From Phoronis australis (Eukaryota; Animalia; Phoronida), in NCBI GenBank assembly GCA_002633005.1, contig NMRA01000045.1:1171552-1235551 (forward strand): a stretch of DNA of 64,000 nucleotides. The letters are read 5' to 3'. Numbering within the stretch: the first letter of the stretch is position 1; each line of letters starts with the position of its first letter. Shown piece after piece: positions 29,501 to 31,926 of the stretch. A program made the translations under genes and the position numbers. The notes under the pieces were generated by a model, which searched no databases, had not been told where the DNA came from, and worked only from the letters and a program-made list of their open reading frames with translations.

Positions 29501-31926
29501 TTAACACCTGATTTTCAGGGGAGAGAACTGGTTCTCAAATACAGTACCCCTGTAAGTGGAACTTAACCAACTGCACTTCAACAAATTTAGGCAGGACATA
29601 TTTTCACTTCACAAATTGTTGAAATTTGATAATCTGAAAGTATCCTAACTTAAAAAAATCTGTTTTGTGACTTACAAGCAACACATAAAAGATGGACAAA
29701 CATTTTTTAAGTCTGGTCTGTGACCTAATGAACATAAGTCTGAAAAGATTTCTACCCCTATCAAAACTCGAATCCAGGATCTTTGCTAACTATGCAGACC
29801 AGACTTAAAGATGTTTGCGATCTACTTATGTTCATTAGGTCACGTGACGTGGTCAACAGATGGCATGCAGACCTGACTTTAAATGTTTGCTACCTATATA
29901 TCCATGCTAATTCAAGACTTGCTCATTCATAAACAATGTCCATCGTTCCAGTACCCAAGTTTAAGATCAAAAAATTTTAATTATGAGACCAAAATTTATT
30001 TTACAAGCGAAATAAATTTTTGTTGATGTTTTCAAATTGTGTTTAATTACCTAATCGTCTTAGCAATATAAGGTGCAAATTCGGACTCTTCATCCCCACT
30101 ATAAATCCCAATTCAGCTTAAACAAGCCTTGCCATTGACATCCTACTTAACTTTTCTTTAACGATTTTAATATCAGCTGAAACTGACATTGAAAAATAGT
30201 AGCAACCCTAAATGACATGGCAAGACAAACCACATAAATGTACCAAAACACAAATAAAACTCTTCGTGTATTTCTTACAATGTACCAAGAAGCAATAAAA
30301 CAGCTATTGTTTTGACGAGCAACCCCAAGACAATACCAACTTAAACATTTAATTTGTAATTAATTTTGTTACGAACATGATAGACTAAAAGGAATTTCTA
30401 ATCACTTCATGCTGTAGAGTAACTACTGAGTTTTACAGAGAAACACTTGATCAACAGGGGCTATTTATAGCAACCAGATAATAGAAGGAAATCAGACAGA
30501 AGATTTTGGAATCTGTCCAAAATAATTCAAACATGTCAGAACATGTTACCTCAATGTCATATTTTTCTTAAAGTTTTGTGGCGCTATGACAGACATAACT
30601 ACAACAAAAAACAATTTAAAACATCGCGATTTGTTCTCTGCCACTGAATTTTAAGTAAAATAATTTACAAAGAAAAATTGGTCATTGTCAACAAAAACCA
30701 AACTGAAGATAGTGAGAGAAAAAAACACAACATAATGTCAATCACAAAAAATCAAATCATGTTTTTAAATCAACATTAATTTAATAAGCGAGCATTTAAT
30801 AACCAAATAGTAGAATACAAATTAAAAAAATATCTAAGCGCAAGGATGCCATGAATCAGAGACAAAAATCTATGTTATCAAATAAATTAACATCAACAAA
30901 CACATACCTGACTGGAGCTAAATCGATTAACTCTAGGATATCTTAACGTGAACGTCATCATATTAAAACCGAAAATGTTATCAAAAAACTTCAAAATCCT
31001 CACAAGCTATGACCAGCTGACTCGGTAGGCACTCAGTGCACAACGGCTCTGTTGAGTCAACTGACTTAGTGATAATAGGCTCTAAACTAGTAGGACATGA
31101 GACTTGCCCAGACTTGCCCAAAAGCACATGGCTGGGTTCAGTAGCACATTGGCTGAACAGCAATACATGAGCACTGTGACCAATGTAACGTTATTGCACC
31201 ACTGTGTGACATCATGCGCAGAAATGGGCACTTTTGGAGGGAAATGAGCGCAAGTGGGAATTCCCGACGTAACTGATTAGCAACATGCAACAGCAAATTT
31301 TGAATTTGTCAAGATTTTTATGTGAACAACAACACATTCGAAACTGGCAATCTAAACAGTTGATTAAACAAGTTATCTTAAGTTATTCTACAAGTCGACA
31401 CAATTCATTAAGCCAATGTAGTGATAACAAACAAAAAACACTTACCAAATCAGTAATAGTGTCCTGATGCCCAAATTGTGCAGGAACAAAGAGTTTGTTG
31501 ATCACCACCTCCGTGTTCTGTTCATCAGAGGCATACTCATATTGCGGATCAATTGCATTGAGTTGGGTGTATCTGCAAATTGGTTCAGAAACATTCCTTG
31601 CAGATTTGCATAGTGATCAGATAATACTAACAAACCTTGAAATTATGCCTTCTGACACAAATGACCAGCGGTGCAAGCACTTCATAATGAAGACAAAATA
31701 GTAATGGTCAAAAGATGAATTAAGGACTTTGTACAGTGTATGATGCACAGTTCAGGTTTAAAGACTATTTAAACTTATTACTGGAGCATGACAATCGACA
31801 AGGCTACTGTACTTACTCTCCATTTTCAGTCACATTTGAAAGGGCGGACCAGATGCTCTGGAACGCTTCCTGTGAATTCAGCCCCTGTGAGCCAGACAAT
31901 AAATCCGTGATGGATTGTTGTGACAT
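9439..31926 (-). CDS. TP63/TP73-like: p53/p63/p73-family transcription factor, full-length TA-alpha form (616 aa)
   Basis: Coding exons, all GT-AG and phase-consistent: 31817-31926, 31446-31572, 26563-26637, 26143-26201, 25071-25149, 23558-23744, 22667-22880, 21530-21651, 20578-20666, 20088-20209, 13758-14072, 10244-10343, 9439-9690. [15 protein letters not shown] (FxxxWxxL, MDM2-type). DBD motifs [95 protein letters not shown]...[34 protein letters not shown]. Confidence 0.96.
11415..11710 (+). pseudogene. KolX-like (P2X7 cytoplasmic ballast-related) ORF, 5' part, frameshifted and truncated
   Basis: MAGVGD...GGYMFEPEY, then after a frameshift [25 protein letters not shown]. The YxFEP and WCxCxxC...ECLCC pattern is typical of KolX/ballast domains. 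Confidence 0.7.
11700..12503 (-). pseudogene. THAP-domain transposase N-terminus (Kolobok), frameshifted and truncated before the DDE core
   Basis: THAP C2[14 protein letters not shown]...LHRFP...RRTWL...RVCGKHF...LKKDTIPS. Further frames give [19 protein letters not shown] and [11 protein letters not shown]...PEVHL. Confidence 0.85.
13605..13745. repeat. Minisatellite, about 41-bp unit, about 3.5 copies, next to the 13757 donor
   Basis: tacatcaagtctctacatcagtcatcatacactaccacatg repeats at about 13637 and 13678, with partial copies on either side. Confidence 0.85.
14489..14525. repeat. (AAT)n microsatellite, about 12 units
   Basis: aataataataat... seen directly. Confidence 0.95.
17370..17469 (-). 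CDS. Putative alternative terminal exon of the p53-family gene (SAM-less, p53-like basic tail)
   Basis: Acceptor catcgtttcag|G is phase-compatible with the OD-exon donor (CA|G). Encodes [39 protein letters not shown] on - at 17038-17043. Confidence 0.65.
22508..22666. repeat. 37-bp minisatellite, 4 copies, immediately after a DBD exon donor
   Basis: ataccctcaccctctactgcccattatttaaccactc repeated, abutting the GTGAGT donor at 22666. Confidence 0.9.
23805..24312. mobile_element. Non-autonomous hAT-like element (508 bp) with 6-bp TSD
   Basis: TIR CAGGGCTTGGAA / TTCCAAGCCCTG. CCAGCT duplicated at 23799-23804 and 24313-24318. Subterminal GCGGAA repeats. Confidence 0.8.
26938..27035. repeat. Degenerate 20-bp tandem repeat, about 5 copies
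   Basis: aaaactgagcatggtacctc / aaaatgtgagtgtggcggtc / ... / aaaatttgagcatggtggg. Confidence 0.7.
28100..28119. promoter_or_regulatory. Perfect p53-family response element (intronic)
   Basis: GGGCAAGTCC AGACATGTTT equals two RRRCWWGYYY half-sites with 0 spacer. Confidence 0.75.
30529..30548. promoter_or_regulatory. Near-consensus p53 response element
   Basis: AAACATGTCA GAACATGTTA: two CATG cores, 0 spacer, one terminal mismatch per half-site. Confidence 0.5.
30908..30961 (-). CDS. Putative deltaN alternative first coding exon of the p53-family gene
   Basis: ATG ATG ACG TTC...CAG|gtatgt encodes [18 protein letters not shown], 18 codons, phase 0, matching the 26637 acceptor. It lies in the intron after the two TAD exons. 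Confidence 0.7.
31059..31152 (-). promoter_or_regulatory. Putative internal (P2) promoter with perfect p53 response element
   Basis: Inr-like TCAGTT (31064-31059), AGACTTGCCC AGACTTGCCC at 31100-31119, and CCAAT on - at 31148-31152. Confidence 0.7.

What the first reader, a model, noticed from the sequence alone, without database searches (positions are those of the whole stretch)
30529..31152. Self-inducible deltaN isoform: internal promoter with a perfect p53 RE feeding a TAD-less first exon
Seen, 5' to 3' on -: CCAAT, then a perfect AGACTTGCCC x2 with extra partial half-sites beside it, then TCAGTT Inr about 35 bp further on. An 18-codon phase-0 exon follows that bypasses both TAD exons, then a further near-consensus RE at 30529. 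Established: vertebrate deltaNp73 is induced by p53/TAp73 through an RE in its P2 promoter and acts as a dominant negative. Inference: the same negative-feedback loop is hard-wired in this invertebrate single-gene locus. With the alternative 3' exon it gives at least a 2x2 isoform matrix, implying deep ancestry or convergence.
Basis: partly seen in the sequence, partly recalled or inferred. Interest (0 to 1): 0.85.

Follow-up and report, generated by a model that had tools for sequence, protein, structure and literature searches.

The report
Self-targeted internal promoter of invertebrate p63
A marine invertebrate's p63-like gene makes a short form lacking its activation domain from an internal start that sits just after a perfect p53-family binding site, so the gene likely switches on its own inhibitor as vertebrate p53 and p73 do; the short form is already known in molluscs, while the feedback is untested.

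Summary
The 20-bp element at 31100-31119 matches the p53 consensus perfectly. RNA reads join 30908 to 26637 in 4 of 4 runs; in the three raw-read runs there are 17 deltaN versus 27 TA junction reads. Five molecules end at 31051 and 31208-31409 has no depth, so this is a first exon. All four no-spacer sites with at most 3 mismatches in 64 kb lie within 28100-33085. The gene is a lophotrochozoan-type p63 with SAM exons. DeltaN and alpha/gamma forms are already deposited for Mytilus and Lottia, so the 2x2 matrix is not new. DeltaN joins at the same alignment column in three molluscs and a brachiopod. Two bivalve-type loci keep the same intron and phase, with a conserved promoter block holding degenerate p53-like half-sites: suggestive only. 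Binding, induction and dominant-negative action are untested. TA-induced negative feedback is the likeliest reading (0.55); positive deltaN autoregulation is the main rival.

The parts
33066..33085 (.). p53-like element, 2 mismatches, about 245 bp or more above the TA 5' exon
   Evidence: TA reads reach no higher than the 32723-32823 bin
32658..32823 (-). TA 5' untranslated exon (upper end approximate)
   Evidence: joint 31938-32658 with 2, 3 and 4 reads
31817..31938 (-). TA coding exon 1, with the FxxIWxxL transactivation helix (FQSIWSAL)
   Evidence: joint 31572-31817 in 4 of 4 runs; aligns with mollusc TAD; no Pfam hit for this exon alone
31446..31572 (-). TA coding exon 2, aligned to the p63 segment before the deltaN junction; phase-0 donor
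   Evidence: joint 26637-31446 with 5, 6 and 16 reads; alignment
31180..31184 (-). ATTGG, a reverse CCAAT box 32 bp above the other
   Evidence: sequence; function inferred
31148..31152 (-). CCAAT box
   Evidence: sequence; function inferred
31124..31133 (.). extra half-site, 2 mismatches, 4 bp from the full element
31100..31119 (.). perfect p53-family response element, no spacer; an exact 10-bp tandem repeat
31084..31093 (.). extra half-site, 2 mismatches
31051..31064 (-). start region: TCAGTT initiator-like motif (31064-31059), TGACTCA AP-1-like motif (31059-31053), read 5' ends at 31051
   Evidence: 5 molecules end at 31051 in run X2; motif names recalled
30908..31062 (-). deltaN first exon: about 90-100 nt of leader without ATG, then 18 codons (30961-30908), phase 0
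30529..30548 (.). intronic p53-like element, 2 mismatches, two CATG cores
   Evidence: not in a repeat within the window
26563..26637 (-). first shared exon, acceptor of both TA and deltaN
20088..26201 (-). shared exons 26143-26201, 25071-25149, 23558-23744, 22667-22880, 21530-21651, 20578-20666, 20088-20209: DNA-binding and tetramerisation domains
   Evidence: all junctions read-supported; Pfam PF00870 and PF07710
17371..17469 (-). short basic last exon (gamma/p53-like C-terminus)
   Evidence: joint 17467-20086 with 7, 1 and 13 reads; TA 427 aa, deltaN 366 aa
9439..14072 (-). alpha exons 13758-14072, 10244-10343, 9439-9690: SAM domain and inhibitory-domain-like tail (predicted splicing)
   Evidence: open 616-aa frame with GT-AG ends; weak SAM hit E 0.003, below cut-off; alignment; no reads laid here

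Best explanation
The p63-like gene has a second promoter inside the intron after its two transactivation exons, which makes a TAD-less deltaN protein, and the perfect p53-family element just above that start likely lets active full-length (TA) tetramers switch the deltaN form on, which would then damp TA activity. Shown: the exon, its splicing, its approximate 5' end, and the element's match and rarity. Inferred: CCAAT and initiator motifs give basal output. Active TA (the short-tailed form, or the alpha form after damage signalling) binds 31100-31119, helped by 30529 and 28100, and raises deltaN. DeltaN keeps the identical DNA-binding and tetramerisation domains, so it would compete for sites and enter mixed tetramers.
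For: Junction in 4 of 4 runs from 2 studies. 5' ends at 31051, zero depth at 31208-31409, and no joint from the TA exons into this exon. Perfect no-spacer element where 0.00004 are expected per 300 bp. All 4 no-spacer, core-intact sites with at most 3 mismatches in 64 kb fall in 28100-33085. DNA-contact and zinc motifs align with p53/p63: KS in L1, [24 protein letters not shown]. An annelid homologue binds a p53 consensus in vitro (PMC8901663, passages). No-spacer sites are the most active (PMC4470028, passages). TA induction of deltaN through P2 is described for p53 and p73 (PMC3191818) and for zebrafish delta113p53 (PMC7698932). Two bivalve-type deltaN promoters each hold their locus's only no-spacer site with at most 3 mismatches within 300 bp of the ATG.
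Against: No binding or induction data. DeltaN is already abundant, 17 of 44 junction reads, in runs of unknown condition. The review read says the negative loop was not described for p63, and this gene is p63-like. Mammalian p63 autoregulates positively through intronic enhancers (PMC4333422). The clam sites are degenerate: each species' best site has 5 mismatches in the other. Half-site density there is only about 2-fold background (5 versus about 2 per 300 bp). The clam promoters do not align with the window. The element is an exact tandem duplication and could be young.
Confidence: 0.55

Rival explanations
1. Positive self-maintenance: deltaN itself binds the promoter and intronic elements and sustains its own tissue-specific expression, as mammalian deltaNp63 does.
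For: Substantial deltaN share in all three raw-read runs. p63 sustains its own transcription through enhancers in an intron downstream of P2, and NF-Y acts at the deltaNp63 promoter (PMC4333422, passages); the 28100 and 30529 sites sit in a comparable place. TAp63alpha is a closed inactive dimer (PMC9091270, passages).
Against: A short-tailed form lacking the inhibitory tail is spliced and, if it carries the TA start, would be an available activator. A perfect proximal element matches the p73/p53 P2 pattern. The 18-residue peptide has no shown activating function.
Confidence: 0.25
2. The sites are bound but repress: deltaN or TA occupancy 40-70 bp above the start lowers P2 output (negative autoregulation).
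For: The element lies close to the start region. DeltaNp63alpha has reduced activity on classical p53 targets.
Against: The vertebrate P2 cases read here are activating.
Confidence: 0.08
3. The internal promoter is real, but the element is a neutral by-product of a 10-bp slippage duplication and the promoter runs on CCAAT, initiator and AP-1-like motifs.
For: The element is an exact 21-bp period-10 repeat. No alignable conservation with the two clam promoters.
Against: It is the only such duplication in 64 kb and its unit is a perfect half-site (24 perfect half-sites in 64,000 positions). A second perfect site that is not a duplication, and two 2-mismatch sites, lie within the same 5 kb.
Confidence: 0.1
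4. The exon is a cassette spliced into P1 transcripts (deltaN-prime type), not a first exon.
For: Depth is low (about 1-7), only 18-19% of each raw run was read, and run X3 has slight depth (0.71) at 31107-31207.
Against: The joint table for 30400-33400 lists only two joints, neither into this exon; five molecules end at 31051; no AG between 31030 and 31110 has a strong pyrimidine tract (best 11 of 15).
Confidence: 0.02

Closest known systems
Vertebrate TP73 P2 promoter / deltaNp73 feedback loop (also human delta133p53 and zebrafish delta113p53)
   Same: Internal promoter after the TAD exons, short unique first peptide, p53-family element near the start; described as TA-induced with deltaN inhibiting TA (PMC3191818, PMC7698932, passages).
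   Different: Induction and inhibition are demonstrated there and only predicted here. Here TA and deltaN would come from one locus and share an identical tetramerisation domain. The peptide is unrelated. [quoted passage not shown]
Vertebrate deltaNp63 (exon 3') with its autoregulatory intronic enhancers C38/C40
   Same: SAM-bearing gene; deltaN replaces the same N-terminal segment (69 residues by 14 in p63; 79 by 18 here); CCAAT/NF-Y at P2; self-binding sites downstream of P2.
   Different: The p63 loop is positive and tissue-maintaining; the sign is unknown here.
Molluscan deltaN p63/p73 (Mytilus AAZ05996, AAZ05998, AKE31916 deltaNp63gamma; Lottia DeltaNp63alpha)
   Same: Same junction column, same intron and phase 0 in loci L001/L002, same alpha versus short C-terminal choice.
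   Different: 13-residue peptide MIK[VF]ERTGFTTYR versus an unrelated 18-residue peptide here. The two bivalve-type promoters have only degenerate sites (2 and 3 mismatches). No promoter study was found in the library searched.
Drosophila deltaNp53 and shrimp LvdeltaNp53
   Same: Invertebrate internal promoter with a short unique N-terminal peptide replacing the TAD (PMC7698932, PMC5374463, passages).
   Different: No p53 element in the internal promoter is described in the passages read (0 hits for 'response element' in PMC5374463). Homology of the intron position was not tested.

Membership tests
p63/p73-like gene | p53 DNA-binding domain with zinc ligands and DNA-contact residues | tested here: met
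   PF00870 E 6e-23 and 3e-17; PDB hits; alignment
p63/p73-like gene | tetramerisation domain | tested here: met
   PF07710 E 4e-11
p63/p73-like gene | C-terminal SAM and inhibitory tail | tested here: met
   616-aa frame aligns through SAM with homologues; single-exon Pfam hit is below cut-off; splicing predicted, not read-tested
deltaN (P2) isoform | alternative first exon inside the intron after the TAD exons, spliced in frame to the shared exon | tested here: met
deltaN (P2) isoform | own transcription start (capped 5' end) | tested here: inconclusive
   5 read ends at 31051 in 1 of 3 raw runs and an empty upstream intron; no cap-based data
deltaN (P2) isoform | protein is made and keeps DNA binding and tetramerisation | not testable with these tools
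   domains intact in the 366-aa model
p53-family response element | two RRRCWWGYYY half-sites, spacer 0 | tested here: met
   consensus as given in PMC4470028
p53-family response element | bound and transactivated in cells | not testable with these tools
   no ChIP or reporter data
TA-deltaN negative feedback loop (TP73/TP53 type) | TA induces P2 through the element | not testable with these tools
   run conditions unknown
TA-deltaN negative feedback loop (TP73/TP53 type) | deltaN inhibits TA | not testable with these tools
   inferred from shared domains
TA-deltaN negative feedback loop (TP73/TP53 type) | element conserved in relatives' deltaN promoters | tested here: inconclusive
   2 of 2 bivalve-type loci have degenerate sites in a conserved block; no close relative available
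single-gene p53-family locus | no paralogue in the genome | not testable with these tools
   no genome held; some relatives list two p53-family proteins, e.g. Liolophura P0170 and P0199

The most novel reading that the evidence does not exclude
The self-targeted deltaN promoter is an ancestral bilaterian circuit: one deltaN first exon in the same intron, driven by the gene's own product through a p53 element beside a CCAAT box, predates the protostome-deuterostome split and the vertebrate p53/p63/p73 duplications, surviving as a perfect site here and as degenerate sites in bivalves.
Probability: 0.35. Interest if true: 0.68.

Novelty: new member of a known kind. Interest (0 to 1): 0.45.

Why it matters
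DeltaN isoforms are known in molluscs and arthropods, but none of the passages read says what turns them on. A perfect element at an expressed deltaN start gives a clean test of whether the TA-deltaN feedback seen in vertebrate p53 and p73 is older than those genes. The p53 family is studied in bivalve neoplasia, so the matching conserved block in clam promoters gives a concrete target there. The mechanism itself would not be new.

Tried and rejected
No whole genome is held, so paralogues and genome-wide element frequency are untested. A word-based homologue search with one exon found nothing; the HMMER search found 462 proteins at E up to 0.001 (150 listed), none above 68% identity, so no close relative's locus was available. 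The mollusc deltaN pattern found nothing in prokaryote genomes, as expected. Blastn of the window intron against L001 and L002 gave no hits. The bacterial promoter scan is irrelevant to an animal promoter and was ignored. A terminal reading of the 14072 exon was rejected in favour of a donor at 13758 leading to SAM exons. The careful tree did not finish; the quick tree places the protein among lophotrochozoan sequences beside Owenia (SH-aLRT 91, not starred). I inspected 28100-27950 by eye for a second deltaN exon and saw no in-frame candidate or listed junction, but 16 joints were hidden. Earlier scan notes held nothing. Three sought papers and one review were not held.

Full report
Observation. 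The 20-mer at 31100-31119 has no mismatch to RRRCWWGYYY x2. A first-order Markov model expects 0.006 such sites per 64 kb. With one mismatch allowed the window has 2 matches, against a shuffle mean of 0.14, and 0 of 100 shuffles reach 2. The only no-spacer, core-intact sites with up to 3 mismatches are 28100 (0), 30529 (2), 31100 (0) and 33066 (2): 4 of 4 inside one 5-kb stretch. None lies in a repeat within the window. The 31100 site is the only exact period-10 duplication in the window.

Expression. Four RNA runs with the same species label, from 2 studies, were laid; X1 is a contig set whose RNA status is a guess. Junction 30908-26637 appears in 4 of 4 runs (1 contig; 9, 3 and 5 reads). The TA junction 31446-26637 has 5, 6 and 16 reads. 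DeltaN is therefore 17 of 44 reads, from 18-19% of each raw run. Reads are stranded for the - strand. In the zoom, depth is zero at 31208-31409 in all runs, five molecules end at 31051 in X2, and the only joints are 31572-31817 and 31938-32658. Against a sharp start: X3 has 0.71 depth at 31107-31207, and the 5' pile-up is in one run only. The exon is best read as a first exon starting at or slightly above 31051, about 40-70 bp below the element. TA has its own 5' untranslated exon with donor 32658, and the 33066 site lies above it.

The gene. Read-supported exons give TA (427 aa) and deltaN (366 aa) with a short basic tail. Three further exons give a predicted 616-aa alpha form with SAM and an inhibitory-domain-like end; no reads were laid on them. 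Pfam confirms the DNA-binding and tetramer domains. Best local identities are 40-43%, to mollusc proteins. A quick tree of 34 selected rows puts the protein among lophotrochozoan sequences, without a starred placement. DNA-contact and zinc motifs are intact, and an annelid homologue binds a p53 consensus in vitro (PMC8901663, passages).

Relatives. DeltaN proteins are deposited by name for Mytilus (alpha and gamma) and Lottia. RefSeq models with a short unique N-terminus were seen in 7 of the 9 genera printed: Lingula, Lineus, Ptychodera, Glandiceps, Mytilus, Haliotis and Liolophura. None was seen among the members printed for Octopus; Branchiostoma's variant replaces only the first TAD exon (62 proteins printed, a selection). 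The deltaN junction falls at alignment column 146 in the window, Mytilus, Lottia, chiton and Lingula, 145 in Lineus and 143 in Glandiceps. In Ptychodera it is column 124, one residue before the stretch aligned with Glandiceps, across a gap. The peptides are unrelated between phyla.

Two bivalve-type promoters. A pattern for the mollusc deltaN peptide found 2 loci in metagenome contigs, L001 and L002, both bivalve-type p63 genes by their TAD exons. Both show the second TAD exon ending in phase 0 and a phase-0 deltaN exon, as in the window. A 119-bp non-coding block above the ATG is 72% identical between them (E 8e-9). L001's only no-spacer site with up to 3 mismatches in 7.6 kb is at -219 (2 mismatches; 0.002 expected per 300 bp), with a third half-site and ATTGG beside it. 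L002's only one in 3.9 kb is at -174 (3 mismatches; 0.008 expected), with CCAAT at -260. The C and G cores of five aligned half-sites are kept in both. Against: each best site has 5 mismatches in the other locus, half-site density is only about twice background, repeated TGATC could be another factor's motif, the two loci are related, and nothing aligns with the window. This is suggestive, not proof.

Mechanism. Shown: the exon, its splicing, the approximate start, and the enrichment of elements. Inferred: the gene's own products bind these sites (about 0.85-0.9 in my estimate). The likeliest sign is TA induction of deltaN with deltaN damping TA, as reviewed for p53 and p73 (PMC3191818, passages) and zebrafish delta113p53 (PMC7698932, passages). 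The same review says the loop was not described for p63. Mammalian p63 sustains itself through intronic enhancers, with NF-Y at its P2 promoter (PMC4333422, passages), and TAp63alpha is held as an inactive dimer (PMC9091270, passages). Positive deltaN autoregulation is therefore a serious rival.

What is known. Internal promoters giving TAD-less forms are described in Drosophila and shrimp (PMC7698932; PMC5374463, passages). For Muttray 2007 (deltaN in molluscs) and Stifanic 2009 I saw only titles in reference lists. From PMC10303687 I saw passages and part 1 of 20 of supplement 5. From PMC4470028, PMC8647153, PMC10564563, PMC5593689 and PMC3634015 I saw passages only. Ten library searches listed no paper on a p53 element in an invertebrate deltaN promoter, judged from titles, abstract starts and the passages read. 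The main mollusc papers are in journals not held, so absence from print is not established. The names Inr, AP-1 and NF-Y for the motifs, and the gene names SNIP1 and PQLC2, are recalled.

Verdict. A real, expressed deltaN promoter with an unusually clean self-target site: a new member of a known kind. The isoform matrix is already known in molluscs. The added value is a directly testable case for an old autoregulatory loop. Interest 0.45.

Noticed in passing
window 28100-28119: Second perfect p53-family element with further partial half-sites nearby, 2.8 kb below the deltaN exon; candidate autoregulatory enhancer.
   Followed up: partly
window 33066-33085: Two-mismatch element above the TA 5' exon; the TA promoter may also be self-regulated.
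   Followed up: partly
window 32016-32217: Extra stranded read depth above the first TA coding exon, mainly in run X4 (3.9), hinting at another TA 5' end or a retained intron.
   Followed up: no
window 11355-12512: THAP-domain ORF (PF05485, E 9e-15) with an opposed ORF inside a 3' intron of the p63 gene; similar ends near 11100-11240 and 12640-12780 by eye suggest a DNA transposon.
   Followed up: partly
window 4249-5229 (+) and about 38500-50300 (-): Neighbours: an intronless FHA-domain gene (SNIP1-like, name recalled) and PQ-loop transporter exons (PQLC2-like, name recalled).
   Followed up: partly
L001 and L002 (oriented positions 2300-2362 and 2210-2272): A second conserved non-coding block (63 bp, 87%) in the intron above the bivalve deltaN exon; candidate enhancer.
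   Followed up: no
proteins P0263, P0293 versus P0216, P0027, P0120: Hemichordate deltaN peptides begin MLHIS and MLRISS, resembling vertebrate-type MLYLE, MLYVS and MLYIN starts; possible homology of the deuterostome deltaN exon.
   Followed up: no
window 23800-24400, 29700-29900, 33115-33152, 33480-33600: Interspersed repeats with high two-strand read depth inside or above the gene.
   Followed up: no
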